A stretch of DNA of 64,000 bases, from assembly GCA_017460085.1 (NCBI GenBank), contig JAFUBQ010000021.1:9228-73227 (forward strand). Reading direction: 5' to 3'. The number at the start of each line of letters is the position of its first letter. Position 1 is the stretch's first letter. Source of the DNA: Alphaproteobacteria bacterium (GTDB lineage: Bacteria; Pseudomonadota; Alphaproteobacteria; RF32; CAG-239). A program made the translations under genes and the position numbers. A model generated the notes under the pieces. That model was not told the DNA's origin. It saw only the letters and a program-made list of their open reading frames with translations, and ran no database searches. Positions 2,682 to 59,741 of the stretch are shown here, one piece after another.

Positions 2682-3995
2682 CTATTGATATGCAATTATT
2701 TTTGCATTTTCCGTTACCAATAATACATAACCATTAACAGCAATCGGTGAAGCATTAAGGTCTTCCCCTGTATCAAAACGGTCTATTAAATTACCGTTTT
2801 GCGGATTATAAAACAGCAATTCGCCGTTTGATAAGGCTAAAACCAAACGACTATCTATCATCACCGGAGCAAATACGCGTTCACTTTTCTTTTTATCTCC
2901 AAAATCAATATTCTTAGCCCATAAAATACGTCCGTTTGTTTTATTAATTGCCACAAGTTCTTGCTTTTCGGTAGTAACATATAATGCATTTCCGGCTAGA
3001 AGCGGGGTATCTGTACCGCCAATAGATTTTTCCCAAATGCGTGAACCGGTGCGAATATCCGATGCCACCATCACATTAGAGCGCCCTAAAGCATAGACTT
3101 TGCTGCCTTCAACAACCGGCGAAGCTGTAATGGTATGTAAATAAGTCGAAGAATATGCCTGACGTTGCGAAATTAGCGTATCTGACCACAGCGGTGTTCC
3201 GATAGTACCGTTAAATGTTTGTAATTCACCATTAGCAAATCCGGCTATCACCACATCTAAACTCGGACTATATGCCGGTGCTGCACCGCCGACCATAGTG
3301 GTATTTTCCATGGCAATATCGTAATCCCACAGTTTTTCGCCATTTTTCATATCAAGGGCATAAAATTTATTGTCAACACTCTGAACTAGTATCTTTCCGG
3401 CAGCAATCACCGGTGCAATTCTGAACAGCGTATGCATATTTTTTTGCCATAAAATATTACCATCAGCAGAATTAACGGCAAATACAACCCCAAAACCGGT
3501 GGTAGCATAAATCACACCGCCTTCCATGGCCATACCCACACCTTTAATTGCGGTATCATCAACATTTTTTTCTTTAGATTCCAACAATGTTTTCCATATG
3601 GTTTCGCCATTGCGTAAACTGAAGGCACGCATTGAACCTTCGGCATCTAAGGTATAAACTTTGTCGCCATTAATCAGCGGTTGCGAAATTAAAAATTCGT
3701 GTTTAGAACTGCCTTTACCAAAATCAGATTTCCATATACGCATAAAACGCGCACCCGCTTGAATATTCGGAATTACGTGCTGCGCATTAACGTCTGTCTG
3801 CTTCCATGCGGAATTTGTCGTTACTGCCGGAATTTGAATCTGCGACGCTCCATCGGCAACTTCTGCTTTAATTGCTGTTTCCTGATCCAAAACAGAAATG
3901 CGCTGTCCCTGAGGCAAAACTTTGTTGGAACACCCACATAACAAAGATGCAGCCACAAAACCGCTCACCCAAACAAAAGATTTTGTACTTTTCAT
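2682..3995 (-). CDS. bamB: Outer membrane protein assembly factor BamB-like PQQ beta-propeller lipoprotein
   Basis: Signal peptide with Cys-containing lipobox-like end (AASLLCGCS). Repeated beta-propeller blades (YALD, YATT, YAVN motifs with G/W residues). Position between the yfgM-like gene and der. Confidence 0.7.
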   Translation of the reverse strand: MKSTKSFVWVSGFVAASLLCGCSNKVLPQGQRISVLDQETAIKAEVADGASQIQIPAVTTNSAWKQTDVNAQHVIPNIQAGARFMRIWKSDFGKGSSKHEFLISQPLINGDKVYTLDAEGSMRAFSLRNGETIWKTLLESKEKNVDDTAIKGVGMAMEGGVIYATTGFGVVFAVNSADGNILWQKNMHTLFRIAPVIAAGKILVQSVDNKFYALDMKNGEKLWDYDIAMENTTMVGGAAPAYSPSLDVVIAGFANGELQTFNGTIGTPLWSDTLISQRQAYSSTYLHTITASPVVEGSKVYALGRSNVMVASDIRTGSRIWEKSIGGTDTPLLAGNALYVTTEKQELVAINKTNGRILWAKNIDFGDKKKSERVFAPVMIDSRLVLALSNGELLFYNPQNGNLIDRFDTGEDLNASPIAVNGYVLLVTENAKIIAYQ

Positions 3996-22737: not shown

Positions 22738-25700
22738 TTATTTCTCGGCCATTTTCAGATATCTGTATGCAAGTTTGTTATAAACGCTTGCAGGCATATC
22801 CAAGAATTTGACAGTGGCATAATGCTTGTCAATACCTATTACTTTGCAATGAATAGCTGCCTTAACGTCATCAAACATCAAATTCAATACCTGTTCATCA
22901 CCAAGCTGCCAATTATCCTTATTAACAACAATGGCACTGTCACGCGTTAATTCTATAATTTTTACATTGGTCAACAGTCCGTTGTCTTTCCAAACATCGT
23001 ATTTAGCAACAGATGCTTCCGGCATCACGTATGTATTATAATAACCGTAGTAATCCTTAGCCTTTTGGCGAATTTCTGTTTCTTTCAAGCCTAAACGCAC
23101 GAAACTATTTTCATCGCCGAAGGTATTGACCAATTTATCCCAATCATAATGAACCACCGGTGCCATTGTATGGAATTTGATTTTTTCATCCATATTCAAA
23201 CCGAAACTACCGGTCTTTTGCGTATAAAGCTGAACATTAGACGGCACTAACCGGCGATAATCATTATCCACCACCGCTAAATATCTGTTGCTGTCAATAT
23301 CGCGATTGCCGTTTCTGATTTCGGCATAGTTATTGATATAGCTGTCGTGGATAATTAAATTTGTATCCATCGTGTTGATATAAGCATTGTCAGCATATAA
23401 TGTATTAAACTCAACACCGCGCTCGTCGTCAGCGTAATCATTCATCGAAATGACCGCGTTTTTAGTTTTAAAGCCATAATCACTTATATTATTTTCTTTG
23501 TTTTGGAAACGCGTCGGAATATTGTCAAACGAATACTGTTTTTCATAATCATTGCGCTGTGGATTATTCACCCATTCATTAACGACCTTATCATCAACAC
23601 CGGAAATATTAAGTCTGATAGCTTTACCTTCACCGAAAGTGTTAATTCCTTTTGCTTCGTATACTGTTCCGCTACCGCCGAACTGCGCATCCGAATAAGT
23701 TTTTTGAGTTTGCTTATATCCATTCGGATTATTTTTAGTGGAAACATCAGAATCCGGAGCTTTAGCCGAATTAACATAGATATTATCGGCCATCAATACT
23801 ATATCACTTTGATAATTTTCATCCTGAGTGCCGCGAACCGTCATTGAATAAATTTTCAAATTAGAATCACTGCGTTCCGGTGTATCAACAGCATCTAAAA
23901 CGCTGATATTCACATATTGCGGAACAACACTTTTTTCCGGTGCCGCCGAATCAAAACCGTAAACTAACTCATCGTGCGGATAAAGCATATCAGTAAATGA
24001 GGCAGTATCTTCAGCTGGCATACCTAAATTCATAATCGCCAAATTCTGAGCTTTTTGCATTATTATAAGCTCTTTGTTGGACGTTATTTCCTTGATGGTA
24101 GCATTAGATGTCAAATCTAAATCAATTGCACCGTGCTTAGATATCATTTGATAAATCTTCGTTTCATTGCCCGAATTCGCTTTGCCGCTCATATACAAAT
24201 CGTTCTCCGCTTCCAAGCTGACCGATGATTGCGAATCTGTTGCCGTATTTTGCAGATACGTCAGTTTTTTGCCTTTTTCCCCTATATTGTTGCTGGCAAT
24301 AACGGAAATATTCTGACCGCTGATATTGACATCATTATTATTCGCTGCATTCAATACGGAATATCCAATAAAATATGCCTCATCATCAGGTGTCGGACGA
24401 ACATCAGCTTGTTTCCAATCTGCCGCCGTTAAAATAACATTGCCATCAGTCGTTATATTCTGAACATTTAAATCAGAATCTTTAGCACGCAAGTTAATCA
24501 GACGATTGTCGGTCTTGTCATTGTTAGTCGCTTGCGCATTCACAACTCCGCTAACATTCACATTGACCGAATCCGTCCAATCACGAGTAGACGCATCAAT
24601 CGTAAAGCCAGGACGCGCGTTATCGGTGTATCCGATATCACCGTCCGTTACATTCATTGTCAAATCTCCGTTTGCCGTCAACAAGGTCTTATACGATTGC
24701 TCATTTTTACCCAAATCAGCATTTTGATGCAGGCTGCCAGATGTATCAATAATTCCATTCAAAACATTGCCGTTTTGCTGATTGATAGCAATATTTCCAT
24801 CTGCGGTTTCAACATAGTCATCATTATTGCTTACCAATTCGCCGATTGTTAAATCAGAATCTTTATTTGTTATCACAATATTTTGTTTATCAGCCAAAAC
24901 TTTGCCTTCAACCATTATTCCTTTGGCTCCGGTGTTTGAAATTTCAATATTACCGTCACTGTTATGAATTTGACCGGTTGTGGCAAGTTTCATACCGTCG
25001 GCAGACGTATTGGCAACAGTCGTTTTGCCTTTAGTATTAACGACATTACCAGCAATATTTAATGCACCAGCATTGGAATTTGAAATTTCAAGCTTACCGT
25101 TTGTAACAGACACACTGCCGGTTGTTGTAATATCTAAAGCTCCATTTCCGGAATTTTTAACATTTATATTACCGCTGCCTGAGTGTTCTACTAAACCGGC
25201 AAGTGTAAATTTACTACCATTATTTTCGGCCGTTATATTTCCGCTTTCAAGATTTTTAATTTCAGCGCCGTCTGCAACCGTCAAATCCCCTTTATTATTT
25301 GTAACTGTTGTATTACCTTTAGTATTAGAAACTTTTGCCGTGGCGGTAAATTCAGCACCTTTGGAACCATTGTTGGTAATTGAAATATTACCGTTTTTAT
25401 CGGTGATGCTGCCGGATACGGATATTTTATCACCGGTATTTACCACGGTAATATCACCTTTTTCATCAGTAATATTACCTGTAACATTCAAAATGCCGGC
25501 ATTGGAATTGGTAATTTTCACATTGCCTTCTTTTTCTTCCACATCGCCGTTAACATTCAATGCGCCTGTTCCGGTATTATCAATAGAAACATTTCCGGTA
25601 TTTAATATATTACCCAAAATATCCGTATTGCCAGAGTTTGTATTTATATCAACACTGCCGGCCGAAATTATGGAAGCAATAACATTATCATCTTCATCGG

Positions 25701-28700
25701 TCTGCTGCTTTATTATCAAACCATTGTTTGCCGTAACGGTTAAAGCACCGGCAGTATCAACATTGCTACCAACAAAACTATTTTTGATAACACCGTCCAA
25801 TACAAGTTTGCCGGTTGAAATAATCTGTGTATCAGCCTTGGCAACAATCTTAGCTGTTGTTTCACTATTGTCTTTAACGTCCTCAGTATAAGAATGAGAA
25901 TATCCGCCATCGCTCTTGTTATTGGCAATATTATAAACATTTAGCTGTTTATTCGTTTGGTTATCAATTTTGATATTTTGATATCCGCTATAGGTTTTAA
26001 TATTACCTTCAACATCACCGCCGGATGAAACGTTAATGTTCACTGTTCCTCTCTTACTGCTATCAACACCTTTAACAGGGTTATTGATATGGTAAACATA
26101 TATCTGCCCGTCTTTATAAAGTGCCTTTATGTTATTTGCCTCATTAGCCCACGGTGTTGTGCCTAAGTTAATCAAGATTTTTTCACCGGTAACTGGGTCA
26201 TCAAGCAAGTCAGAAAGCATTTCATCGGTAATGGTCAGCGTTAAGTCTTTGTTATAACCGGCTGTAATATTGGCATCTATATCAACATCATTACCGCTGA
26301 TATTAACCGAATTTGCAGCAAACACATTTAACTCGCCATTGCAACGCCAAACAGCCGGAGAAGTTAAATTAACATCTCCTTTTGTTGATATTAGATTTAC
26401 TATTGACATACCGGCCGGATTAAAATCTTTTGCCGTAATTGAACCGGAATCATTAAATACGCTAAGCTGATGTCCGCCGGTATTAACTGTTCCGTTAAAG
26501 GTAATATCCGCAGTATACTCGGGGTGCGGTATGTTCTGATTTAGAGCAAAAGGATTTGCCGTATCATAGTAATTATTAACAATCACTCCCGAAAATCCCG
26601 TTCCGTCTTCGCTACTCACATAATGCGCACCTGATGTCCCGACCTGATTAAAGTCCGTATCATAAATCATATGACCAAACATATCTGTTCTGCCATACTT
26701 ATATGCATAAGCATTACTGCCGTTAACCGCTTTTTCGCTATCTACAAATTCACCGAAATTTTTATCACCGATAATCAGTCCGCTTTGATGAGCAGAACCT
26801 AAATCAATATTGTTAAATATTACGGAACGAGTTGAATAGTTTTCCACCTTTACGCCGGCAGCGGCAATATTAAATATGCCTAAACCACTAAGATTATTGT
26901 TCGTCATACCATCAAGTTTAATACGAGCAGTATCTGTTGTAATATCATTAAAGAGAATAGAATATTCTTCGCCTTTAACAATGGCAAATTCAGAAACATC
27001 CGTGTTTTCTATTTTCGTTTTCTGGTTTCTTAAAGCCGCCAATTCACTATTTAAATCGGTTATTATATTACCGTAGTTCGTAATTTTTATATCTAACGCA
27101 TCAATTTTTTCAGCAGCATTTGCCAGCGTTGTATCAAGTCCTTTAAGTTCATCACAGGTTTTAATATTATCAATGGTTGTCGGGTTGGTTACGCCGGCAT
27201 ATTTTTTACCGTCAAATGCAGTATAAGTCATAAACTTTTTATTTGTACTTATACCAAGTTTACCTTGAACAGCATCAAAGGCCGTTTTAACTGTTGCTTT
27301 TTGAGCATCTGTTAATCCTAAACTATCATCGTTTGCCCAATATGCACTCAAAGTAGAATAAACATTAACTGCCTTTTCAGGATCTGCTTTATTAGCTTCA
27401 ACAATTTCTTTTATTTTTGCATCGCTTTTTTCCTTAAATAAAGTATATTTTTCCGCTGTGATTTTATCTGCGCCATCTCCTACAATTTGCGACTGAATAT
27501 CATTTTGTATTTGTTCTTCAAAAGCGCTGATCGTTTTGCCTTCTGCCACCTCAATATTTAAGAGTGTATATTCTCCATCTACTAATTCTTTGAAATCAGC
27601 TTTAATATTTTCGGCAGATGTTTTTTCTCTGACATAAATTGCTTTTTCGCTATCCAAAACTTCTTTTTGAGCGGTAACGTCAGCTAAAATTTCTTCTGCA
27701 CTGGTTATTTTGCCTTCAATAGAATTAAGTCTTTGCTCTTTTATTGTAGCACCATCAGCTAACTCGCCGCCTTCAAGAGTATATGCATCGGCAGAAAAAC
27801 CTTGCGTTTTTTCTTCATCAATACTACCGTCTTTCTTGATGACAATATATTTACGGTTACCTTCGCCTGCCACCATTTTGCCATTAAGCTCCAAAGATGG
27901 ATTTATGTATTTATAATCGGAGTACCAGTAATCATCATCGGAAATAAGCCCCCATCCGCTGTTCGTTTCCCATATTATTTTAGAGAATACAGATCCCGAT
28001 CCTTCTGAATAGCTGACTTCAATATCTTTATTTGAAACAATTTCAGCCCCGCTTGGAACGATAAGTTTATTATTTACAGTCTTAGTTAAATATCCGCCCT
28101 CTTCAGTGTCGGCAACCAAAGCGGTGCTTTCCGTACGGGCTCTGTTATATAAATCATTATATGAGTTGTTCATATAATTTACATCTACAAGTTTGCCCGC
28201 AGTAATAGAACCGCTATTGTTTAATTCATTATTTACCGTCAGCCTTAAATAAGAATAAGCCTCAGCCGGAGCGGCAAAACCATACGCCTCCGATACAGCT
28301 TCAGAGCTCAATGTATTGTTTGAATCAAAATTAAATATCGTCTGATTATCCGCCTTAATAAGAGAACTGCTATCCAAACTAATCTTATTTGTATTTGTTT
28401 CATTCAGTTCAATATCGGCAGACGGAGCACCAACGAAACCTCTGTTGTCATTATCTGAAAACTGTTTGAACCATGAGCCGGTTTTTACTTCTAATTTGGC
28501 ATCATTTTCCGCATAAAGTTTGCTTGAATTTCTCAAGTCAATTTGACTTGTCTGGGTGAGCGTATTATCAACATCCACATCACTAACCGAAACAAGACCG
28601 CCGCCACCGGCATCATAATAAAATGTTTTGTTATCTTTTGATTTTATATTCGAAAGCGTATTCATATTTATATCATTTGCACGTATTTCCGAATTTTCTA

Positions 28701-31700
28701 AATTCAAATACGCACCTGAAGTATATGACCTGCTAAAGTTGCCATGTAAAACAGAAACAACGCCGCCACCGTTGTTTGAACCGGAATCGGCAACAATGGT
28801 ATTGTTTGTAACATTATACGCAATCGTATCGTTTGAATTTATATCCGCATTTTTAACATTTGTCGTTGTACTTGTGTTAAGCTCGGCATGGCTTGCACTT
28901 GTGCTCACATTCACAACACCGCCGGAACCATGCTTTGATATGGTATCAAATGTATTGGTAGAAGTGTTGTTTATGGTGATGTTGTTATTTGCAACATCTT
29001 TATCGGTTTTTAATCCATCAACGGTCAGTACAGAGTTTCCTCTTAATCTGTTTGATGTTTCGCTTGAACCATCATCATTTACATTGATTATACCTCCCGA
29101 ACCGGTGCTTATATCGGTAACGGAATTTCTGGTTGTTTGAAAATCAAACGCTGCTTGACCGGCATTAAAATCACCACCCAAAGAACCTGTTGTGGAAGAA
29201 TTCAAATCGGCATCTATGCGTATCCGCTGTCCGGATCCGACTAAACCGAAATTAAAACCGTATAAACTTGATTTTATATCCGAATTATGAATTGCATTAA
29301 TAATAGCATTTCCGGTTATGGTATTCGTCCCTGCCATAACCAAATCAAGATTACTTGTATCTTTGGCATCAAAACCGATACTGTTTACACCAACGATTAC
29401 CGTAACCTTTGTAGAATCAACGTCGGCATAAGCTTTTGAATTCAGATAGGAGTTAATATCCAATGAATCCGCTTTATGTTCTTTTGCTTTTAAGTATGTT
29501 TGAGATTTTGCGGTATTTTCTGCATTTGCAAATGTTCCGGCATAAGCTCCCAAACCGGATACTTCAACGCTCGAAGCTTCACTTTCAGCTTTTATCTTTC
29601 CGGCATCACCCGATATCAGAGCTTTAGCGGTTTCAATTTTTGTTTTGCCGACATTATCTATGGTAAGCCCTGTCAAACTATCGATACCAGATGTAAAATC
29701 AGCATTCATTTTCGCTCCGGACGTTGCCTGAGCTGCAGCACTGGCAGCAACAACACGAACAACACCTGTTTCTTGATAAGCCCGCATCGTTTTATAATCG
29801 GTTATAATATCAAGCCCTTTTGTATTAACTGTTCCTATTGTATCCTTAAGCAGAGCCTTTGTTTCCGTATTGGCTGACACATTACTCTTATTTCCGGTAT
29901 AAACCTGTGTAATTTGAACTTTTGTTGTGTGATTTTCAGATTTTAATTCAGTATCAGAGGTTGCATGAATTGTGAGTTTGCCAAGCTCATCTGTTTTCAA
30001 ATTTCCATCTGCGTCTTTTTTAGAAGCATTATTGTTAATGTTTGTATTACCGGTAATTTGCGCATAAGCATGATTTGAATCTTGTAAATCAACAATATCG
30101 ACACCGGCAAAGTCACCTGTTGAAACCATAACATGCGTTGTATCAACTTCCGCCTTGCTTTCGGAATATGATTTCACCGTTATATCATCTTTAGCATTAA
30201 CTGTTGTGTTCTTATTATTTCCACCGATTTGAGCAATAGTTTCGGAGCTGTTGTTGATAATATCACTCGCGTAAGTAACAACAACACCCGTAACATCCAC
30301 TGCTGTTCCGTGAATTTTTGTTTTTGCGTGCGATTCTGCATCAACAGTAATACCGCCGTTTTTGCTTTCAACATTTCCATCAACAATTCCGGCAATAGTC
30401 TTATTTGAAAATTTTATATTCTTAACATTACCGGCGGCAGTTATTCCTGTCACATTGACATTTACATAACCAAGGTCAACCGTATCATTATCGCCCTTAC
30501 CTTTTAAGGTGGTTTTAGATTTAATATTTATATCATCTGTCGTTTTTAAGTTACCTTTAACTCTGGCAATGGTTCCTGTCTCTTTTTCTTCTGCAGACGA
30601 CGATGGACTATAATGTCCGTCACTTTCAAACAAATTATAAATTGTTTTTGTTGTATCAACAGCCGTATCTACCTTGCTGGCTTCATCATCACCGGTATAT
30701 GCAGGAACTTTTCCCAGACGCATAACCGTAACATCGGCAGCCAATGCACCGGCCCCCACAACAACACCTACTTTTGATGTGTCGGTTGAATGTGTTGATA
30801 CAGCGCTGACATCAGCACTCTTGGCGTTAATCTGACCATCGGTGGATGATGTAGTTTCCGCTGTCACAATACTATCGGAATAATATAAGTTAATATTACC
30901 GCCAATTGCTACAAGACCTCCTGCAACATTAACACCGGTTGTATCTAACAAAGTATTGTCGCTCGCCTTAACAATTAAATTGCCCAAAGTGTTTATTTTT
31001 TGTGATTTTGCATCAATATATGCCTGAACTGTCGAATCTACATTATGTACAACAGCAGAAACCCCGGCCGCACCGCCTTTAATTGTTGCGGCAACACCGA
31101 CCGCCAAATCATAAAATTCTTTATTCGAAAATGCCTGAACATCAATCGAATCCGATGAATCGATAGCTGTATTGTCTATTTTAGCAAAATTTTTATTATT
31201 ATAAACATTATAAGACACTAATCCTGAAACACTAACTCCTTGTAATGTCGCACTTACGCCGATGCTGTGATTATCTATTTCATCTCTTTTATCTTTATTG
31301 GTATTTAATACAATATTGCCGGCCTTTTTTATTTTTGAATCTAAAATACTTGTTTCAACAACAGAGGTAATTTCGTTTATTATGACATTTCCGGCTAAAG
31401 CAACACCTTGGCCGCCCGCGGCAACACCGACCAGCCAGTTATTAAAATCAATCGTTGAATCGGCATTCAAAATAACATTTTTTGCCGTATCTACAATCGA
31501 GCCGGAATCTATAACGGCTTTTGTGATTGTATTATTATTATTTTTTACGGCAACGCCTGTTCCGGAAACTCCTTGCATAGCAAAACCTGCACCGACAACA
31601 ATATCTCTGGTATCAATATCTGTATTGGCTTGCATGGTTATAGCCGCATCATTTATTGTCGAACCGGAAATTTCCGCAAGTGTTTTGCCTTTTTTCTTGG

Positions 31701-34700
31701 CTTCATCTGTTTCATCAGATGAATCGCCATAATAATTTATGACAGGAGCTACTGCTATTGCCAAATTTTTTGAACCGGCGGCACTCACAACAATGTCTGA
31801 AGCATTAATATCTTCATCAGCGTTTATTTTTATTTCACCGGCATTGACTGTTGAATTTGCGATTTTTGCCGTATTTGTATCTTCTACGATATTATGAAGA
31901 ACATTAACCGCACCGGCAAATTTAGCGGAAGCATCTGCAGCAACAACAATCCGATTGCTGTCTTTTCTGTTCCATGAAGCCATTTCCAACTTGTTGCCAA
32001 GTGTTATATTAGAATTATTTGAAATTAAACTTGAAGTATCACTACCGTCATTTGTTACAATAACCTGAGCACCGACAGCGCCGTTACTGGATGCCGAAAC
32101 TTGTCCTGCAACAATGTTGCTGACAGAGCGATCCGTTGCCATCAAACTCAAATTATTTGCCGCAATATCGGCAAAAGTAACTTCTGCTTTGATTGCATCT
32201 TCAATCGTTTTTACAATAACAGCGCCGGAAACAGATACTTTTGCTCCAATGGCAAAGTTATAAAACATATTCCAATTTTCAAAACTGTTATCATAATTCA
32301 AACCGGAATAATTACCATCCTCACCCTTTTGCATTAAGGTATCATTATACCCTTCAGCAGTTATTTCATCTCTTTCATAGACTCCGCTACTGTTTTTTGT
32401 TCCGCCGAGCGAATTAACGGAAGCCGCAGCAACAGATACATTTCCTGCTGCTTTTATTTCATTTTTTTCATCATAATGAACTGTATGTTCATTGCCATCA
32501 TCATCTTTATATTTATAATCTTCTCTACCGATTTTAGCTTCCACGGTTTTTGAAATTAAATCACGATTGAACGAGCCGCCGACATTAGCTACAGTATCAG
32601 CCGCCGCAATTGCAAGTGTGCCGCCTCTGGTATAAAGCGTTGTTTCATCATAAGCGTTAACATTGATATTGTTGACTTTATTTTCATCAGTACCGATATC
32701 GCCTCTGATATAAGCCCTAACCGAATTATCAATGATATTGACACCGACGGTTGCCGCTAACATTGCCAAATTTTTATCGGTTGAAACAGATAAACCTACC
32801 GGAATAACATTGGCTTTTTCTTCACTTCTCGCACTAACCGTAACATTATTGGCTTTTAAGATTTTTGAATCCGCATCAATTTGAGCAAATATATTGTTTT
32901 CATATTGATTGACATCAACACTTCCGTTAACACCGACACCGGTTTTTGCGGAAGAATAATCAAACGAACCTGCAACCTGCAGATTTTCACTATCAGACTC
33001 CGCATTTACATTAACATCATTATCAGCAGTAACGGTTGAATTAATCGTTTGTGCGCTGATGACATCATGGATATAATCAATATTCGCACTACCGGCAAAT
33101 TCTATACCCAAACCGGAACCTGATGTTCCTGTTAAAATAGCACCGGCAACAGCAAATTCCATCAGATCGTTTTCGGCCTGAGCTTTGATATCTAGATTAT
33201 TGATATCATTAAGCGTTGAATCCTTAACATAAGAATGTATGGTATTATTAATATTATTGTAATTTAGTGCTGCCCCGGCAGAAACTCCGGCACTTGATCC
33301 GCTTGAATAAGAACCACCGCCGGCAATATTATAGATGTCCAAATCATTCTTGGCTTCAAGTTTTGCATTAATTTTTCCACCGTTTGAACCTATTGTTGAG
33401 CTGTTTATATAAGTATCAATTTCCGGTTTTAAAACATTTGCTGAAGCACTGCCTCCAGCCACCGCTTTGAAACCGGCACTGTTTTGTTCATCATTTGTTG
33501 CGGCTCCGACACCGATTGCAATATTGATAAATCCATTCTTGTTATCAGCCGTCACATCTAATTTAGGCGTTTCTCCTTTAAATGTCACATTGGAACTGTC
33601 CACATAAGACTTTACCGTACCGCCTTGTTTATACACATTAACTGCCGCTCCGGCACCGATTTTTTTGGAACCGGCTACACCGCCTGAAATATTGAGCATT
33701 TTATTTTCTCGATCGGCATCAACAGTTACGGACTTTTTTGCATTGATATTTGAATAGTTAATAGAAGATTCAACCTTTGTATCATCATTTGTTACATTTA
33801 CCGCACCTGCAGCCGACAGAGAAAATGCCGAACTCGGATTATTCACTGCGCCGCCTGTCGGGTCTTTCTTTATATAGTCATTGATAACATTCAAATTATC
33901 ATTATTTCCATCATTTTGGGCATCACTTTTAAGTAACAGCGACTTTCCATTGCTGCTCAAAGCAAATTTATTGTTTGCATCGATACCGCTGTTAAGATTG
34001 CTGTCTATATCTTGAGAGGCAGCAAGATAATTTGCCGCATTGAAATTGTTTAATGAATTTAGAGCATTGAGATTATTATCAGCACCTTGTTGAGGATCGC
34101 TGTCCGCAACCATCATCCTTATTTGCTTATCAGTAAAACCGCCGTCTTTGTAGAACTGATACAGCCAATCTGAAATTCCGCCGGGGTTATTGGGGTTAGG
34201 ATCTTGGCTGAGATTATCAAGCCTTGAATTGCCGGAGTTATTCTGATTACCGCCTCTCATCTCACGCATAATTTGATTTTCGGTCAGTCCGGCATCAAGC
34301 AATTCTTGAAAAACTTTAATTTCCGCATCAGAAAAACCTTCGCCATGTAAACTCTGATATTTTTCATCAGTCATTCCGGCCGGTTTATTCGGATAAGGGT
34401 TAATATTAGGCTGTTGTCCGCCACCGAGTATTTCATTGCGCTCTTCTTCCGACATACTGCCAAAATACTCTTCTATTGCTTGATCAGACATCCCGTTTTC
34501 ATCATGCAATATCCTATATTGTTCATCAGTTAAACCGCCTGGATTTTTGCCGTCAGAACGGATAGCTGTCGCTATTTTGAGGGCTTCATTCGGTGAATAT
34601 CCCTGATCAATCAATATTTGATAATGCAATATTCTGTTATCGCTTATACCTTTTGCTACAAGTTCTTCATAAGTTGCATCAGACATACCTTCCGGCTTCA

Positions 34701-53863: not shown

Positions 53864-54148
53864 ATGAACATTATTGAAGATATTATGCCTTTAAGCAACT
53901 TCCGCCAACAGGCATCGGAGATCATCAAAAAACTCGGTCAAGTTAAACGTCCGACATTTATTACCATTAACGGCAAGGTTGCCGCAGTTGTTCAAGATGC
54001 CGAAAGTTATCAGCAGATACTCGATAAAATTGATGAGCTTGAAACAATGCTCAGTATTCAGCGCGGTTTGGAAGATATTTCCGCCGGTCGCGTTTCAACT
54101 TTGGATGAAGTATCAGCAAGATTAAAGGCTCGCCATGAACAAGTATAA
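53864..54148 (+). CDS. Phd/YefM-family type II antitoxin
   Basis: 94 aa, MNIIEDIMPLSNFRQQASEIIKKLGQVKRPTFITINGKVAAVVQDAESYQQILDKIDELE is a typical Phd/YefM fold sequence. Overlaps the downstream toxin gene by 14 nt. RBS AGGAG. Confidence 0.8.
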   Translation: MNIIEDIMPLSNFRQQASEIIKKLGQVKRPTFITINGKVAAVVQDAESYQQILDKIDELETMLSIQRGLEDISAGRVSTLDEVSARLKARHEQV

Positions 54149-54464
54149 AATCATCATTTCTCAAGAGGCAGAGGATATTTTAACTGCCTCTTATGACTAT
54201 TTGTATGCGAGAAATCCGCTTGCCGCCGTTAAATGGCTTGACGGAATGTTACAAACAATTCAAAGCCTTGATACGTTTCCTGAGCAAGGAGCAATTATTC
54301 CAGAAGCCTCTTTAGATGCTTCTTTTGCCGATTTGCACCAAATATTTTATACAATGAATGCCGGAGGCAATACCTACCGTATCATTTATAAAATCACAAA
54401 TGATACGTGCAAAATCGTTGATGTTGTAACAATCCGTAGTGCGTATCAACAACCAATGGCATAG
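54135..54464 (+). CDS. ParE/RelE-family type II toxin
   Basis: 109 aa; ParE-like sequence (IIISQEAEDILTASYDYL...YRIIYKITNDTCKIVDVVTIRSA); translationally coupled to the antitoxin. Confidence 0.72.
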   Translation: MNKYKIIISQEAEDILTASYDYLYARNPLAAVKWLDGMLQTIQSLDTFPEQGAIIPEASLDASFADLHQIFYTMNAGGNTYRIIYKITNDTCKIVDVVTIRSAYQQPMA

Positions 54465-57107
54465 TTATCTGTAACTCCCATAAGCCGGATTAAGTCCGTA
54501 ACGTTGTTCCAAAAGCGGCGATAAGCCTTCGCCTTTGGAGATGTTTTTGCCGATTGCTCCCTCGATTTTTTCAATAACGACATCCAAGCTGAAATCGCCG
54601 TTACCGAGATTAGTCTTGCTGACAGAGGTTTTGACTTCCGAGGCGGCGTTATTAACGACGTTTACGTTGACATTTACTTCCGTTCCGCCGCCGTTTCCCA
54701 ACGCTTTCATCTGTTCCTTGGTAAAAACACCTTCACCGCGTTTAGCGATAATCGGCACTTCATCGCCGACAATACCACCTTTGTGGAACTTCGGCGCACC
54801 GGAAAACACCGCCGGACTGGCATAGGTTGTTTTTAAGTTATCCGCCCCGACAATGCCGCCGGTATGCGCCGCTCCAAATCCCATATATGCTGAAAGGCTT
54901 GCCATAAGCGGTTGCGTGACAGCTTGCCGCATTGCCAACTTGGCAAAATCTTGAACAATCGAATTAACCAAGTCCGAAATGTTCATTTTGCCGGTTGTCA
55001 CGAATGACACCAGCGCATCTTCCATGCTATGAAAAGCGTTTCTGACGGTGCTTTCAGCCAATGTTGCAAAGTCATCGACTTCTTTTTTAAGGCCGATAAA
55101 GCCACGTTTGAAGCCGTCTTCCATCTTTTTCGAAGTGGCAAGAGCTGTTTCATCGGCTTTTTTAACCATATTATCGTAAACTTGCTCGATTTGCTTTTTA
55201 TAATCCTCATAACCGCTCGCACTTGAACGCAGGTTTTTGAGCGCATTTTCTTTCCATTGGTCGGCTTTGGCCATCGCTTGTTCGTATGGCGTTTTAAGCT
55301 CCAACAGTTTGTTTTTAATGTCCTCAATATTGCGCTTATAAGCATTATCCGCCGATTTATCCGTTGTTTTCGGCGTGGTAAAGGTCGGTGTCGACGTTTC
55401 CGCTTTAACCGGCTCTTTCGGTCGCAACTCCGGATTTTCAAGATATTTAAGCTCTTGCTGAGCTTTATACGCATCTTGCTCGGCGGCTTTTAAGAGCAAC
55501 AGTTTATTCTGAATTTCCTTTGCTTGCGGCTGAAAATCCGGATATTCTGCCGCCACCGCCCAAATTTCTTTCTCATATTGCTCTAAGCTGATTTTGGATT
55601 GCCGGAGCGTTTCCGCCCATTCTTTGGCATAAATCTCGTAATCTTTAAGCAAAGACTTCGGCGAATACCTGATTCGGAACGATAAACCGCCGGTGTTTTT
55701 GATTTCGGCGGTTAAATCTTTGATATTTTGCTTGGCGGTTTTGAGTTTTAAGCCCCATTCGGCAAGCGACATATCTTTCTGCTGTTCCGCTGAAAACTTC
55801 GTCGCCTCCTCGGTGGTGGCTTTGAGTTCGTCTTGCAGTTTTTTAAGCGTTTCGGCGTGGTCATGTGCCGCACGTTTGGCGACATCATGGCTGTCGACGA
55901 GTTTGTATAACGCCATACACGCCAAAACAGCAAGTCCGGCGGGACCGCCAATCAGAGCAAGCGCACCGCGTAAAACGCCGGCCGCCGTTGCCAAAACGCC
56001 CATTTGTACCGCCGCCAACTTTGACACGTTACTCATCATGGCAATACCGGCCACCGCCGATTTTGCCTGTAAAGACATTCCGGCAAGCGAGGCTTGAACA
56101 TAACCGATACCGGCGCGAAGCAAGGTTAAACCGCCAAGCAGAGTCTTTGAACCTAATCGCACGGTTAACAGAGCGATTGCCAAATCAGCGTGCTTTGCCA
56201 GCAAGAAAAACGCATTTGCCGCCAAATTTACCGCGGTTGTCAGACCTTTACCGATAGAAGTCGCGGCATCTTCCGCACCGTCCACCATATCGTTGAACTG
56301 CTTCAGAGCGTTTTTAATGGCGGTTGTCAGTCCGGCTTCACCGATATTTCGGGCGAGTTTACCGAAAGCGTCCTCGATGTTTGACATTACACCACCCATC
56401 GTGTCCATTTGCTCTTTCATGGCTCCGGCAAATTGCACGTTGCCAAGAGAGCGCAAATAGGCCTCAATCGCTTTAGCATTCTTGGCAACCGTGGTCGTTA
56501 TGCCCTGAAAGGTAAAATTAACCTTGTCTTTTTCGGTGGTCGCCATAATTCCGAAAGAACGGAGCGAGCGGAAGTTGAACATCACAGCGTTTGATAACGC
56601 TTCCGTAAAGTCCATAATACCGCGCCCGAAAGCCGATGCGGTGTTGCCGTAACTCGTCAACGCTTCCATACTTGGCTCTAAGCCGAGAGCCTTAAGCCGA
56701 ATAAACGCCTCAACGATTTCTTCCAACTGATACGGCGTGTCCAGCGCGAACTTTTCAATCGTGGCAAACGCTTCCTTTGCACCTTCAGCCGAACCGGTCA
56801 CGGTTTTTAATGAGCCGGATAGGCTTTCAAATTCTTTGTTTATACCGACAATGCCTTTGAAAGTCCGCATTAAACCGCTTGCACCGAGATATGCGCCGAC
56901 TAAACCGGCGGTTTGTTTCAATATACCATTAAAGGTCTTGGCTGTGTCGCTTAAGGCAAGCAGATTGTCGTTCGCCGGAGTAATTACCTGCGTAATCTGC
57001 CGGAAAGCCTTTTGACCGTCCGTGCCAAGCGACTTAAACTCGCTTCGCACCTTATCGCCGCCCACCGCCTCAAGCCGTATTGATAATTTTTTCGCTGTTG
57101 CTGTCAT
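54465..57107 (-). CDS. Phage tail tape measure protein (lambda family), 880 aa
   Basis: MTATAKKLSIRLEAVGGDKVRSEFKSLGTDGQKAFRQI N-terminus typical of lambda-family TMP. Long Ala/Gly-rich helical middle with a hydrophobic segment. Located after the G/GT-like genes. Confidence 0.85.
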   Translation of the reverse strand: MTATAKKLSIRLEAVGGDKVRSEFKSLGTDGQKAFRQITQVITPANDNLLALSDTAKTFNGILKQTAGLVGAYLGASGLMRTFKGIVGINKEFESLSGSLKTVTGSAEGAKEAFATIEKFALDTPYQLEEIVEAFIRLKALGLEPSMEALTSYGNTASAFGRGIMDFTEALSNAVMFNFRSLRSFGIMATTEKDKVNFTFQGITTTVAKNAKAIEAYLRSLGNVQFAGAMKEQMDTMGGVMSNIEDAFGKLARNIGEAGLTTAIKNALKQFNDMVDGAEDAATSIGKGLTTAVNLAANAFFLLAKHADLAIALLTVRLGSKTLLGGLTLLRAGIGYVQASLAGMSLQAKSAVAGIAMMSNVSKLAAVQMGVLATAAGVLRGALALIGGPAGLAVLACMALYKLVDSHDVAKRAAHDHAETLKKLQDELKATTEEATKFSAEQQKDMSLAEWGLKLKTAKQNIKDLTAEIKNTGGLSFRIRYSPKSLLKDYEIYAKEWAETLRQSKISLEQYEKEIWAVAAEYPDFQPQAKEIQNKLLLLKAAEQDAYKAQQELKYLENPELRPKEPVKAETSTPTFTTPKTTDKSADNAYKRNIEDIKNKLLELKTPYEQAMAKADQWKENALKNLRSSASGYEDYKKQIEQVYDNMVKKADETALATSKKMEDGFKRGFIGLKKEVDDFATLAESTVRNAFHSMEDALVSFVTTGKMNISDLVNSIVQDFAKLAMRQAVTQPLMASLSAYMGFGAAHTGGIVGADNLKTTYASPAVFSGAPKFHKGGIVGDEVPIIAKRGEGVFTKEQMKALGNGGGTEVNVNVNVVNNAASEVKTSVSKTNLGNGDFSLDVVIEKIEGAIGKNISKGEGLSPLLEQRYGLNPAYGSYR

Positions 57108-57311
57108 TTAATCCCTGTTTCATAGCAAAAACACCGACAGACAACAATTCCGTCAGCGTTTCTTTATCAAAATTCAATGTTTCCGCGATTTTTAAGGCTG
57201 TTTCGAGATTCGGCTCGGAGAGTTTTAATAAAACTTCCCAAGCCTGGTAACCCTCGATTGTTTGCGGCGTTGTTTCGGTATAACGGCATTTATGAAACGG
57301 ACATAACGGAT

Positions 57312-57794
57312 TTAACTCTGTGCATCCGGCGCAGTAACTTCGCCCGTCACCGAAGTGCCACTTGGCTCGGGCGTAAAGTCGTTTTTTTCCGCATCCAACA
57401 ACTCACGCAAGCCGCAATATTGATTGCGAAAGTTCTCGGCAACCACCCAAAAATTCGAGAAAAGCTCGTCAATTTTGGTTTCCGTCAACGGTGCAACTTT
57501 CTCGCTGTCTGCCTCTTGAACACCTTGCCATTCCAAAATACCGGCAATACCTAAGCCGATAAGCAGAAACTTATCCGCCAAAGCCTCGCGTTTAACCGGA
57601 TTTTCAATGTCTTCCGATACTGCTAAGCCTGCATCTTTATTGGCTTTGTATTCCTTGGCCAAATCTGCCAGTTTTGCATTCATATAGGCTTTGGCCTCAT
57701 AAAATACCGCCGATGTGCAAGGCTTAACCTTGACCTTTACGCCGTAACCAATATCAAGCCAATACGGCTCTTTGTTAATCCTTAGCTTTAACAT
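57312..57794 (-). CDS. Tail assembly chaperone (lambda gpG-like); -1 frameshift extension (gpGT-like) predicted to continue to about 57070
   Basis: 160 aa, acidic C-terminus. Slippery heptamer A_AAA_AAC at 57387-57381 (minus). The -1 frame is then open for ~100 codons, through the 204-nt gap, to just inside the tape-measure start. Confidence 0.6.
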   Translation of the reverse strand: MLKLRINKEPYWLDIGYGVKVKVKPCTSAVFYEAKAYMNAKLADLAKEYKANKDAGLAVSEDIENPVKREALADKFLLIGLGIAGILEWQGVQEADSEKVAPLTETKIDELFSNFWVVAENFRNQYCGLRELLDAEKNDFTPEPSGTSVTGEVTAPDAQS

Positions 57795-58735
57795 TAGTAG
57801 CTCTCCACATCGTTGATTAACTTAATCGTCATCATCTTGCCTAATTCCTCGCTTTTTGCGCCTTGGAAGTCGTAGGAACACTCAATTCCATTCGGGCCGT
57901 CAATGGAACGTTTCGGTTTTGGCAAATACACTTCGTGGCATTCAATCACAAGTTTCATGGCGTCGGTTAGCTGATAGCCGAGTTCCACATCAACCGGTGT
58001 TCCTTCTCGTGCCTTATCAAGCAAGATATTGTCGCCGTAGCGGGCGGAAATACTGCCGGACAAGCTCGCCACACCCAAATCAATCGCTTCAACCAAGCCA
58101 TCGTTGCGGATGGTTTCGATTTTTTCCAAATTGTTGGAGTATGTGGCACTTGCCGCCGTGATATTGGCCAAGAATTCGCCACCGCTCTTGATATAGCCCT
58201 GGAATTGCGACACACGCGTGTATTTATAGACATCCGGCGCGGCATCAATCGCGGTTGTTGAGCCTTTTTCGCATTGCGCCATTAAGTTCAACGTCACTTG
58301 CGCTTCGCCGGAACGTTGAAAATTAAAGGCGATACTATTTGCACGAACACCTAAAAAATGAATAAACTGCGGCACTTCGGATAATCCGACTTCCAAAGAA
58401 TAACTCGGAATTGAGATTTTGCCGCTTTCAAAAACGTGATTATAAACTCCGTCAGTTTCTGTCGTAGTTGGCGCACCGTAAATTGCTTTAAGCCATACGC
58501 CGATATTTCGAATATCAACCGGAACAGCCATATCGCCGTCAACGTTAATAACATCTTGGAACGGCTGTGTCGGATCACGTCCCAAACCCAAGACATTGGA
58601 TGATAAAAGGTTTTGTTCGCTGTCGAGAGACGATGAGATAAACGGTATTTGATGATATCCGGTATCCGGCATAACGCCGTATTCGCTTTCTTCAGCGATA
58701 AGTAATTGGGCATTCCACCCGTATGCACGTGACAT
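57794..58735 (-). CDS. Phage major tail (tube) protein
   Basis: 313 aa; position immediately upstream of the chaperone/TMP genes; beta-rich composition. Confidence 0.5.
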   Translation of the reverse strand: MSRAYGWNAQLLIAEESEYGVMPDTGYHQIPFISSSLDSEQNLLSSNVLGLGRDPTQPFQDVINVDGDMAVPVDIRNIGVWLKAIYGAPTTTETDGVYNHVFESGKISIPSYSLEVGLSEVPQFIHFLGVRANSIAFNFQRSGEAQVTLNLMAQCEKGSTTAIDAAPDVYKYTRVSQFQGYIKSGGEFLANITAASATYSNNLEKIETIRNDGLVEAIDLGVASLSGSISARYGDNILLDKAREGTPVDVELGYQLTDAMKLVIECHEVYLPKPKRSIDGPNGIECSYDFQGAKSEELGKMMTIKLINDVESY

Positions 58736-58747
58736 ATTTTTTCCTTT

Positions 58748-59176
58748 CTAAGTTAAATTTGAATCTGAAACATATTCCAAAACAATAGGCACAACCGCGC
58801 CTTTGATGGTTAAGCCGCCGTCAACCGGCTGTTCGATAAACTCCGGCGGATCGGCGTGCATATAATCGATTAAACCGGACAGCGTGACATCAACTTTCAA
58901 AATCAAGCCGATTGCCTCCAAAATGCTGTCAAGTTTGGCATCATTGTCGGAATCCTCAACTTGCTGAATAAGCACTTCAATCTCGGCTTTGTGATGAAAG
59001 ACATAGCAAGCCGGAGACAATAAAATGTCCGGTTCGCCGATATCGCCGTCACGAAGCACCACAAGACCGTTGTCAGGGATTTTGACCGGCAACACGGCAT
59101 TGCGCTTTACTTCCACATCAGGCAGAGCCGACAACCGTGCCAATAAAGCATTTAAGACTTGTTCTCGTTTACTCAT
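58748..59176 (-). CDS. Tail terminator / tail completion protein (gpU / GTA g8-like position)
   Basis: 142 aa; position between the head-tail adaptor and major tail genes. Confidence 0.4.
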   Translation of the reverse strand: MSKREQVLNALLARLSALPDVEVKRNAVLPVKIPDNGLVVLRDGDIGEPDILLSPACYVFHHKAEIEVLIQQVEDSDNDAKLDSILEAIGLILKVDVTLSGLIDYMHADPPEFIEQPVDGGLTIKGAVVPIVLEYVSDSNLT

Positions 59177-59741
59177 CTTTCCAGTTTTCCATTATTAAAG
59201 TTGGGACTTGGGCTTGCCATTTTTCGCTCTCTGTTTCAAAGTTTATCAGCTTCGGCATTTTGACTTGAGGTACCAGAATAAAAGCGATAATCGTTTTTTT
59301 ACGCTGTTCATGCACCAAAAACGATGCTCCGTTCGCCCGATAAATAAAGCGCAAACGCACACCCTTGGACTTTTCATAAAGTGCCGGTGTCATCCGCTTG
59401 TTAAACACACGCTTTTTTATGGACAAAGTCGGAATGGCAAGCCAAAAGCCGTTTTGCGAGCGTATCACCGAAGCATACTCAAAACCCTCAAGGATTTTCT
59501 GCGCCTTAGTGTAAACAACACCAGCTGCCGAGATGCTGTTCTTGGCTTTCGGATAGACATCTCCGCGCCAAGTGTTGGCTAAACGAGAGCCGAGTTTTGA
59601 AGCTTTAACTTGCGAACGGAGCGACATCTTTAAGCCGTTGGTGGCGGTTTTAATACCGGCGGTCACAGCTTTGGCGGCGTTTTGGTACTCCTTATCGAGA
59701 AGCTCGTCCAATTTACCTTCCAATGCCGCTTTTAAGTGCAT
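59169..59741 (-). CDS. Phage head-tail adaptor / HK97 gp10-like protein
   Basis: 190 aa; 8-nt overlap with the downstream gene; position in the module. Confidence 0.35.
   Translation of the reverse strand: MHLKAALEGKLDELLDKEYQNAAKAVTAGIKTATNGLKMSLRSQVKASKLGSRLANTWRGDVYPKAKNSISAAGVVYTKAQKILEGFEYASVIRSQNGFWLAIPTLSIKKRVFNKRMTPALYEKSKGVRLRFIYRANGASFLVHEQRKKTIIAFILVPQVKMPKLINFETESEKWQAQVPTLIMENWKDE

What the first reader, a model, noticed from the sequence alone, without database searches (positions are those of the whole stretch)
57300..57400. Programmed -1 ribosomal frameshift site (A_AAA_AAC) for a gpG/gpGT-like tail chaperone pair
About 23 codons before the stop of the 160-aa G-like ORF, the minus-strand sequence gcg GAA AAA AAC gac contains the canonical slippery heptamer A_AAA_AAC (57387-57381). 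The -1 frame from that point is free of stops for ~100 codons (VVGCGKKRLYARAKWHFGDG...LKIAETLNFDKETLTELLSVGVFAMKQGLNDSNS...). It covers the otherwise unexplained 204-nt gap up to the tape-measure ATG. This is the conserved G/GT translational frameshift of tailed phages. The annotation pipeline's ORF list shows only an antisense ORF there.
Basis: partly seen in the sequence, partly recalled or inferred. Interest (0 to 1): 0.55.

Follow-up and report, generated by a model that had tools for sequence, protein, structure and literature searches.

The report
Phage tail chaperone G/GT frameshift site
This is an ordinary but real programmed -1 ribosomal frameshift, at A_AAA_AAC followed by a hairpin, through which a prophage of uncultured gut or rumen Alphaproteobacteria makes a short and a long tail-assembly chaperone from one gene; public annotation has missed it.

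Summary
On the minus strand a 160-aa ORF (57794..57312) lies between the tail tube gene and the tape-measure gene. It matches PHROG 313 (tail assembly chaperone).

- **Slippery site.** The only in-phase X_XXY_YYZ heptamer in that ORF is A_AAA_AAC at 57387..57381.
- **Extension.** From the next codon the -1 frame stays open for 103 codons (57381..57073). It has no usable start codon, fills the 204-nt gap and overlaps the tape-measure ATG.
- **Conservation.** In 64 of 65 related loci GAAAAAAAC is invariant although neighbouring synonymous sites vary. The extension is always in the -1 frame. In 18 loci a -1-frame TGA directly abuts the A-run, which fixes the shift site.
- **Selection.** pN/pS in the -1 frame is 0.27-0.38, against about 0.9-1.6 in the other frames.
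- **Distant relatives.** Rhodobacter RcC-cluster phages (30% identity) carry an annotated joined chaperone CDS, with G_GGA_AAC at the homologous codon.
- **Hairpin.** A GC-rich hairpin starts 7 nt downstream. It is conserved and shows a compensatory change in three clades.

Verdict: a new member of a well-known kind, and low in surprise. The fusion is 241 aa, not about 260. One extra: the T domain opens with an invariant WHFG...Cys4 motif, possibly metal-binding.

The parts
57312..57794 (-). G-like tail assembly chaperone ORF (160 aa including the unconstrained C-terminal tail; stop at 57314..57312)
   Evidence: ORF. phrog_313 'tail assembly chaperone', E = 1e-6. All 28 homologues scanned hit phrog_313, best E = 1.8e-11. 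It lies between the tube and tape-measure genes.
57381..57387 (-). Slippery heptamer A_AAA_AAC (0-frame GA[A AAA AAC]; Lys in the P site, Asn in the A site)
   Evidence: Position and phase. It is the only in-phase X_XXY_YYZ in the ORF. GAAAAAAAC is invariant in 64 of 65 related loci while the flanking wobble positions vary.
57403..57405 (-). TGA that closes the -1 frame upstream; 5' limit of the region in which a shift can yield the extension
   Evidence: In 18 related loci the equivalent TGA directly abuts the A-run (gcTGAAAAAAAC), so the shift can only occur on the heptamer.
57070..57381 (-). T extension in the -1 frame: 103 codons (57381..57073) plus TGA (57072..57070). It overlaps the tape-measure start by 38 nt. 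The predicted GT product is 241 aa with the junction ...LLDAEKN|RLYARAKWHFG...
   Evidence: There is no ATG, GTG or TTG in this frame before 57177. pN/pS is 0.27 in the overlap and 0.38 in the gap, against about 0.9-1.6 in the other frames. Variability by codon position is 0.81/0.55/1.33 bits. The GT product is colinear with the RcBaka GT product, E = 4e-31.
57336..57380 (-). Downstream RNA hairpin. Core stem CGCCCG (57373..57368) pairs with CGGGCG (57346..57341), 7 nt after the heptamer. It has an inner helix and a weak outer helix (57380..57376 with 57340..57336).
   Evidence: Free energy -20.5 kcal/mol, z = -2.9. RNAalifold recovers the 6-bp stem. Each of its six pairs holds in 36-39 of the 39 distinct relatives. 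A G-C to U-A double change occurs in three separate clades. RcBaka has GCGCCC/GGGCGC with a 6-nt spacer, -26.9 kcal/mol, z = -4.8.
57286..57360 (-). Invariant motif at the start of the T domain: W8-H-F-G-x-G-x2-Y-C17-x2-C20-x6-C27-x4-C32 (possible metal-binding knuckle)
   Evidence: Invariant columns in the alignment of 14 diverse T domains, including RcBaka, and in 49 distinct T sequences. AlphaFold gives low confidence for this part.
54465..57107 (-). Tape measure protein gene (880 aa), immediately downstream
   Evidence: phrog_1716, E = 8.6e-122.
57794..58735 (-). Tail tube protein gene (313 aa), immediately upstream
   Evidence: PF18906 Phage_tube_2, E = 2.4e-46.

Best explanation
A minority of ribosomes translating the tail-assembly chaperone gene (57794..57312, minus strand) slip back one nucleotide on A_AAA_AAC (57387..57381). 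tRNA-Lys in the P site and tRNA-Asn in the A site re-pair with AAA AAA. A GC-rich hairpin that starts 7 nt downstream probably helps by pausing the ribosome. Translation then continues at CGA (57381) in the -1 frame for 103 codons.

The result is a 241-aa GT protein (...LLDAEKN-RLYARAKWHFG...) alongside the abundant 160-aa G protein. By analogy with lambda gpG/gpGT, the shared G part would coat the tape-measure protein. The T part (a Cys4 motif plus a helical domain) would recruit the tail tube protein. Neither protein would end up in the virion.

Shown here: the site, its phase, the coding status of the -1 ORF, its conservation, the conserved hairpin, and homology to an annotated frameshifted chaperone. 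Inferred: that slippage is ribosomal, its efficiency, the roles of G and T, and metal binding by the Cys4 motif.
For: - **Phase and ORF geometry.**. The -1 ORF has no start codon before 57177, so the conserved N-terminal 68 residues of T cannot be made by separate initiation.
- **Conservation.** In 65 related loci (IMG/VR contigs and gut or rumen alphaproteobacterial MAGs, with G 59-96% identical) T is in the -1 frame in 64. GAAAAAAAC is invariant in those 64, although GAA, AAA and AAC all have synonymous alternatives and the base just before varies among G, T, A and C.
- **Site fixed.** In 18 loci a -1-frame TGA directly abuts the A-run. The invariant Arg codon of T follows the heptamer. Together these confine the shift to two codons.
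- **Selection.** pN/pS is 0.27-0.38 in the -1 frame against about 0.9-1.6 in the others. Third-position variability peaks in the -1 frame even inside the overlap.
- **Annotated distant relative.** Rhodobacter RcC-cluster phages such as RcBaka have a joined (j2) 'tail assembly chaperone' CDS. Their site is G_GGA_AAC at the homologous Asn codon, which is not a homopolymer, followed by R-x-x-A-x-A-x-WHFG. PMC8601537 says such frameshift signals are usual in these phages.
- **Hairpin.** It lies at canonical spacing, is stable in four divergent representatives (z from -2.9 to -4.8), and shows a compensatory G-C to U-A change in three clades.
Against: - No protein or RNA data exist, so the GT product has not been observed.
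- In E. coli A_AAA_AAC is much less shift-prone than A_AAA_AAG (PMC5009743). Efficiency in this unknown host is uncertain, though a low level fits the lambda G:GT ratio of about 30:1.
- The hairpin arms also encode conserved residues (Ala-Arg and Gly-Arg), so part of their conservation may be protein constraint.
- The whole-structure covariation measures are modest.
- One locus (L057) has only six A's.
- The heptamer is a 7-A run, so a contribution from RNA polymerase slippage is not excluded.
Confidence: 0.9

Rival explanations
1. Transcriptional slippage: RNA polymerase adds one A on the 7-A run (57388..57382). A fraction of mRNAs then encode G fused to T by ordinary translation, with the junction ...AEKK-RLY... 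in place of ...AEKN-RLY...
For: The site is a homopolymeric A7 run, invariant in 64 of 65 loci. Adding one A would give the same frame change. Bacterial polymerases do slip on A/T runs (PMC5009743).
Against: - Efficient slippage in bacteria is documented for runs of 9 A or T (PMC5009743). Here there are seven.
- The homologous site in Rhodobacter RcC phages is G_GGA_AAC, a classic tandem-slippage heptamer with only three A's. The family as a whole therefore relies on tRNA re-pairing.
- The conserved structure lies 3' of the site at 6-7 nt, the geometry of ribosomal stimulators. From my own knowledge, known stimulators of polymerase slippage lie 5' in the nascent RNA.
Confidence: 0.06
2. No recoding: the -1 ORF is an untranslated intergenic remnant, or the downstream part is made separately from the internal TTG at 57177 as a 35-aa peptide.
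For: A TTG-initiated 35-aa ORF exists in the -1 frame, 57177..57070. Gene callers in public data emit fragments of the region as small 'hypothetical proteins'.
Against: - Purifying selection acts in the -1 frame across the whole 103 codons, including the 68 codons upstream of any start codon.
- The strongest conservation (WHFG, four Cys) lies right after the heptamer.
- The ORF is open and the heptamer invariant in 64 of 65 loci.
Confidence: 0.02
3. A sequencing or assembly indel in the A-run: G and T would really be one in-frame gene.
For: Homopolymer runs are error-prone. One relative (L057) differs by one A.
Against: The same 7-A run and the same -1 relationship occur in 64 independently assembled contigs from different studies. 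The isolated and finished Rhodobacter phages have the same two-frame layout. In L057 the missing A puts T in the +1 frame, not in frame, and comes with loss of the invariant Trp. That looks like decay.
Confidence: 0.01

Closest known systems
Bacteriophage lambda gpG/gpGT (Levin, Hendrix & Casjens 1993; Xu, Hendrix & Duda 2004, 2013, 2014; summarised in PMC5009743)
   Same: - Two overlapping ORFs lie between the major tail/tube gene and the tape-measure gene.
- A -1 shift occurs on a canonical heptamer about 20 codons before the G stop.
- The extension has no start codon of its own and ends at the tape-measure start.
- The expected outcome is abundant G with a little GT.
   Different: - No detectable sequence similarity to lambda G or T: no Pfam tail-chaperone family is hit.
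- The heptamer is A_AAA_AAC rather than lambda's G_GGA_AAG (lambda's site is from my own knowledge).
- A conserved 3' hairpin is present here. From my own knowledge, lambda is reported to need no such element.
- The T domain starts with a Cys4 motif.
Rhodobacter capsulatus RcC-cluster phages (RcBaka gp16/gp17, MW677509; PMC8601537)
   Same: A true homologue. The GT products are 30% identical and colinear across the junction, E = 4e-31. The shift is at the same Asn codon. The R-x-x-A-x-A-x-WHFG-x-G-x2-YC-x2-C motif is shared, as are the GC-rich hairpin at a 6-7 nt spacer and the Phage_tube_2-type module order.
   Different: - The heptamer is G_GGA_AAC rather than A_AAA_AAC.
- Cys spacing is C-x2-C-x3-C-x2-C rather than C-x2-C-x6-C-x4-C.
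- T has an 11-residue insertion.
- The genome is high in GC, and the host is free-living.
g-t frameshift sites of haloarchaeal tailed viruses HCTV-1, -2 and -5 (Sencilo et al. 2013, cited in PMC5009743)
   Same: They use the same pair of heptamers (G_GGA_AAC and A_AAA_AAC) for tail chaperone g-t expression.
   Different: The hosts are archaeal. No sequence relationship was tested here.
E. coli dnaX -1 frameshift (A_AAA_AAG plus a 3' stem-loop)
   Same: An A-rich tandem-slippage heptamer followed by a stem-loop a few nucleotides downstream.
   Different: - dnaX uses AAG in the A site, which is far more shift-prone in E. coli (PMC5009743).
- From my own knowledge, dnaX also has an upstream Shine-Dalgarno-like stimulator. 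No consistent one is seen here.
- The dnaX shift truncates the product rather than extending it.

Membership tests
G/GT-type tail assembly chaperone pair with programmed -1 frameshift (Xu, Hendrix & Duda 2004) | Two overlapping ORFs located between the major tail/tube gene and the tape-measure gene | tested here: met
   Tube gene 58735..57794 (PF18906). G 57794..57312. T 57381..57070. Tape measure 57107..54465 (phrog_1716).
G/GT-type tail assembly chaperone pair with programmed -1 frameshift (Xu, Hendrix & Duda 2004) | The second ORF is in the -1 frame, lacks its own initiation signal and overlaps the 3' end of the first | tested here: met
   The -1 frame is open over 57402..57073 with no ATG, GTG or TTG before 57177. 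T is in the -1 frame in 64 of 65 relatives.
G/GT-type tail assembly chaperone pair with programmed -1 frameshift (Xu, Hendrix & Duda 2004) | A canonical slippery heptamer X_XXY_YYZ, in phase, within the overlap and conserved among relatives | tested here: met
   A_AAA_AAC at 57387..57381 is in phase and unique in the ORF. It is invariant in 64 of 65 loci, and the distant RcBaka has G_GGA_AAC at the same codon.
G/GT-type tail assembly chaperone pair with programmed -1 frameshift (Xu, Hendrix & Duda 2004) | The extension is a real coding sequence, under protein-level selection in the shifted frame | tested here: met
   pN/pS is 0.27-0.38 in the -1 frame against about 0.9-1.6 in the others. Variability shows three-base periodicity.
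G/GT-type tail assembly chaperone pair with programmed -1 frameshift (Xu, Hendrix & Duda 2004) | Both G and GT are made at a fixed ratio, both are required for tail assembly, and both are absent from virions | not testable with these tools
   This needs protein detection and genetics.
PHROG 313 (tail assembly chaperone) | Significant profile match of the G protein | tested here: met
   E = 1e-6 for the window protein. All 28 homologues scanned match, best E = 1.8e-11.
Pfam tail-assembly-chaperone families (lambda gpG-like and other Phage_TAC families) | A match at or near the gathering threshold | tested here: not met
   G, T and GT hit no Pfam tail-chaperone family at E <= 1, and neither did any of the 28 G homologues. 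NCBIfam gave only chance-level hits at E of about 0.1, and the PDB sequence search likewise found nothing convincing.
Rhodobacter RcC-cluster tail assembly chaperone (annotated joined CDS) | Homology of both the G and the T parts, colinear through the frameshift junction | tested here: met
   tblastn found two pieces in two frames, E = 3e-14 to 5e-14. The CDS is flagged j2. BLASTP of the two reconstructed GT products gave E = 4e-31 with the junction N|R aligned.
Pfam DUF7697 (PF24752) / DUF1799 (PF08809) | A profile match of the C-terminal helical half of T | tested here: inconclusive
   The window T domain gives no hit at E <= 1. Close homologues score below the cut-off (P0055, 25.2 bits against 27). 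The RcBaka-like relatives P0083 and P0092 pass.
Programmed transcriptional slippage sites | A homopolymeric run long enough for efficient polymerase slippage (about 9 A/T in bacteria, PMC5009743) | tested here: not met
   The run is 7 A. The homologous site in RcBaka has only 3 A.

The most novel reading that the evidence does not exclude
The frameshift-only T domain may be an undescribed class of tail-chaperone extension. It begins with an invariant WHFG-x-G-x2-Y-C-x2-C-x(3-7)-C-x(2-4)-C knuckle that would bind a metal ion, probably zinc, followed by a DUF7697-like helical domain. It is shared by prophages of uncultured gut and rumen Alphaproteobacteria and by Rhodobacter RcC phages. The RNA hairpin that would stimulate the shift is built from the codons of this same motif, so the recoding signal and the protein motif constrain each other.
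Probability: 0.3. Interest if true: 0.35.

Novelty: new member of a known kind. Interest (0 to 1): 0.25.

Why it matters
**Annotation.** This prophage lineage is common in uncultured gut and rumen Alphaproteobacteria: 65 loci were found here, and one protein cluster was seen on 150 contigs. In public data G, and the fragments of T that gene callers emit, are all labelled 'hypothetical protein'. The 241-aa GT product is absent from protein databases.

**Recoding.** The lineage adds a well-supported natural case of A_AAA_AAC with a 3' hairpin acting as a bacterial -1 site. The hairpin is backed by comparative evidence.

**Tail assembly.** It also points to a T domain with a conserved Cys4 motif that may be worth a biochemical look.

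None of this changes how tail assembly or frameshifting is understood.

Tried and rejected
- **Sequence libraries.** Pfam, NCBIfam and a PDB sequence search with G, T and GT gave nothing useful. The only hits were a chance HTH_3 match at E = 0.21 and E of about 0.1-1 noise.
- **T-domain structure.** In the AlphaFold model the helical C-terminal half is confident (pLDDT about 87-94) and the Cys4 part is not (about 50). Foldseek against BFVD and PDB gave no match at E <= 0.001. The fold stays unassigned.
- **G structure.** The AlphaFold model from a shallow alignment (73-95% identity) had mean pLDDT 51. It was too poor to search with, so the third fold-search job was not used.
- **Heptamer enrichment.** There is none: 52 copies against 50 expected. 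The heptamer alone is not evidence.
- **Upstream Shine-Dalgarno-like stimulator.** The upstream bases (..tGGa.Gc) vary and are too close to the site. Nothing consistent was found.
- **Pseudoknot.** This could not be tested properly. Only a weak 4-bp complementarity between the loop and downstream sequence was seen by eye, and it is not claimed.
- **Whole-structure covariation.** The outer and inner helices are poorly supported: several pairs are unpaired in most sequences. Only the 6-bp core stem is claimed.
- **Literature.** A search for a zinc- or cysteine-containing tail-chaperone T domain found nothing relevant. DUF1799 is mentioned in a single phage genome paper.

Full report
**1. What is in the sequence**

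The relevant genes are on the minus strand, in this order:

| Gene | Coordinates | Evidence |
|---|---|---|
| Tail terminator | 59176..58748 | phrog_4204 |
| Tail tube | 58735..57794 | PF18906 Phage_tube_2, E = 2.4e-46 |
| 160-aa ORF (G) | 57794..57312 | |
| 204-nt stretch with no called ORF on this strand | 57311..57108 | |
| Tape measure, 880 aa | 57107..54465 | phrog_1716, E = 8.6e-122 |

AAAAAAC lies at 57387..57381. Its first base is a third codon position, so the 0-frame reads GA[A AAA AAC], which is the X_XXY_YYZ phase.

The -1 frame is closed by TGA at 57405..57403. It then runs open through the heptamer for 103 further codons, to TGA at 57072..57070, and overlaps the tape-measure ATG by 38 nt. 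This frame has no ATG, GTG or TTG before 57177. The only long ORF a mechanical list shows in the gap is antisense, at 57177..57554.

The one correction is that the fusion is 138 + 103 = 241 aa rather than about 260.

**2. Is it more than chance?**

The heptamer alone is not. The window holds 52 copies against 50 expected. It is, however, the only in-phase canonical heptamer in this ORF. Among real genes of the window it is also the only one followed by a long -1 extension beyond the 0-frame stop. The decisive evidence is comparative.

**3. Relatives**

Scans with the 160-aa protein returned 28 IMG/VR loci and 37 loci in MAGs. Nearly all the MAGs are uncultured gut or rumen Alphaproteobacteria, for example 'Azospirillum sp. 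51_20' and roe deer, goat and human samples. G identity ranges from 59 to 96%.

- A tblastn search with the T sequence finds it in the -1 frame relative to G in 64 of 65 loci. The homology starts exactly at the codon after the heptamer.
- GAAAAAAAC is invariant in those 64 loci. Yet GAA, AAA and AAC each have a synonymous alternative, the base just before varies among all four nucleotides, and the codons after it vary freely.
- In 18 loci the sequence is gcTGAAAAAAAC, so a -1-frame TGA directly abuts AAA AAA. A ribosome can reach the T frame only by slipping on this heptamer.
- On the 3' side, the Arg codon immediately after the heptamer is invariant in T.
- The single exception, L057, has six A's, which would place T in the +1 frame. 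It has also lost the invariant Trp of T. It looks like a decaying prophage.

**4. The extension is coding**

I used a frame-agnostic nucleotide alignment of 50 distinct sequences.

| Measure | -1 (T) frame | Other two frames |
|---|---|---|
| Column entropy by codon position 1/2/3, gap | 0.81/0.55/1.33 bits | n/a |
| Column entropy by codon position 1/2/3, G/T overlap | 0.48/0.39/0.87 bits | n/a |
| pN/pS against the window, overlap | 0.27 | 1.23 and 0.87 |
| pN/pS against the window, gap | 0.38 | 0.93 and 1.57 |

Past the heptamer, then, it is the T frame that is under protein-level selection, not the C-terminal tail of G.

**5. A distant, annotated homologue**

A tblastn search of the reconstructed GT protein against GenBank phages hit 11 Rhodobacter capsulatus phages. 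The six characterised RcC-cluster phages (RcBaka, RcDormio and others) are among them. Each hit came as two pieces in two frames lying under two 'tail assembly chaperone' features. In RcBaka the longer CDS is a joined (j2) feature of 722 nt, the length expected for a -1 shift.

Its site is G_GGA_AAC at the homologous Asn codon. The two GT products align colinearly across the junction...DAEKN|RLYARAKWHFG against ...RQEGN|RISALAEWHFG, at 30% identity and E = 4e-31. The paper describing these phages treats the programmed frameshift in the chaperone genes as the norm (PMC8601537).

[quoted passage not shown] In E. coli A_AAA_AAC is less shift-prone than A_AAA_AAG (PMC5009743). That fits a low GT:G ratio like lambda's, which is about 1:30.

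**6. Downstream structure**

Seven nucleotides after the heptamer lies a hairpin. Its core stem is CGCCCG (57373..57368) paired with CGGGCG (57346..57341), with an inner helix and a weak outer one.

- The 54-nt cassette folds at -20.5 kcal/mol, z = -2.9.
- Three other divergent representatives fold the same way, at -16.5 to -26.9 kcal/mol and z from -3.2 to -4.8. One is RcBaka, with GCGCCC/GGGCGC and a 6-nt spacer.
- RNAalifold recovers the 6-bp stem from 39 distinct sequences. Each of its six pairs is standard in 36 to 39 of the 39 sequences.
- At pair 21/51, five distinct sequences (six loci) carry U-A instead of G-C, and no sequence carries only one of the two changes. These loci fall in three separate clades of an NJ tree.

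Three caveats apply. The arms also encode conserved Ala-Arg and Gly-Arg. The whole-structure covariation measures are modest. The outer and inner helices are not well supported. I therefore rate the hairpin as likely functional but not proven.

**7. What the proteins are**

- **G.** It matches phrog_313 'tail assembly chaperone' (E = 1e-6), as do all 28 homologues scanned (best E = 1.8e-11). It hits no Pfam or NCBIfam family and no solved structure by sequence. Public records call it 'hypothetical protein'. The AlphaFold model was too poor to use, at pLDDT 51.
- **T.** It begins with the invariant motif R-x3-R-x2-W-H-F-G-x-G-x2-Y-C-x2-C-x6-C-x4-C, four cysteines that RcBaka also has. A helical domain follows that is predicted with confidence (pLDDT about 87-94). 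Its relatives reach or approach Pfam DUF7697 and DUF1799. Fold searches found nothing significant.

**8. Mechanism and rivals**

The best explanation, at about 0.9, is tandem -1 ribosomal slippage on A_AAA_AAC, stimulated by the 3' hairpin. It yields G (160 aa) and GT (241 aa). The functional division is inferred from lambda: G binds the tape measure and T recruits the tube protein (PMC5009743).

- **Transcriptional slippage on the A7 run (about 0.06).** It would give the same frame with Lys in place of Asn at the junction. It is disfavoured because efficient bacterial slippage needs about 9 A/T. The homologous RcBaka site is not a homopolymer. The conserved structure is 3' of the site at ribosomal spacing.
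- **Separate initiation or an untranslated remnant (about 0.02).** This is contradicted by selection on codons upstream of any start codon.
- **An assembly indel (about 0.01).** This is contradicted by 64 independent assemblies and by the finished phage genomes.

**9. Verdict**

The finding is right and is now well supported by comparative evidence. It is the conserved G/GT recoding of tailed phages, in a prophage lineage where it has not been annotated. That makes it a new member of a known kind and of low surprise. The Cys4 T domain, and the overlap of the hairpin with the codons of that motif, are the only mildly novel aspects.

Noticed in passing
window 22738..39462 (- strand): A single giant ORF of 5574 aa, outside the tail module. 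It was not characterised.
   Followed up: no
window 53864..54148 and 54135..54464 (+ strand): A Phd/YefM antitoxin (PF02604, E = 5.8e-10) and a ParE toxin (PF05016, E = 1.2e-9). The pair sits on the opposite strand, directly after the tape-measure gene and before the distal tail genes. It looks like a moron-like insertion inside the tail operon.
   Followed up: partly
window 57286..57360 (- strand, -1 frame); also L001 (RcBaka) about 2885..2950: The T domain opens with the invariant motif WHFG-x-G-x2-Y-C-x2-C...C-x(2-4)-C, four cysteines conserved down to 30%-identical Rhodobacter phages. It may bind a metal. AlphaFold is not confident about this part.
   Followed up: partly
L057 (CAKQMH010000005.1), locus about 3400..3420: This is the only relative with six rather than seven A's at the slippery site. 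It also has the invariant Trp of T changed to Arg. It is probably a decaying prophage.
   Followed up: partly
P0029 (196 aa, ENA contig of 3525 nt): A natural variant in which G is fused in frame, right after ...EAEKN, to the C-terminal helical half of T, with the Cys4 region deleted. It is either a viable frameshift-free short GT or an assembly artefact.
   Followed up: no
P0002 and P0013 (short ENA/Logan contigs): The N-terminus of the DUF6441 protein (the homologue of window 59741..59169) is joined directly to the T frame through ...ELLD|AEKKRLY.... These are probably assembly chimeras at a short shared sequence, but they could be deletions.
   Followed up: no
window 44357..45550 (- strand): A 397-aa protein with a class I SAM methyltransferase domain lies next to the gpJ-like tip attachment protein at 47937..45607. 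No tRNA gene is present anywhere in the window, so the prophage end and attachment site were not located.
   Followed up: no
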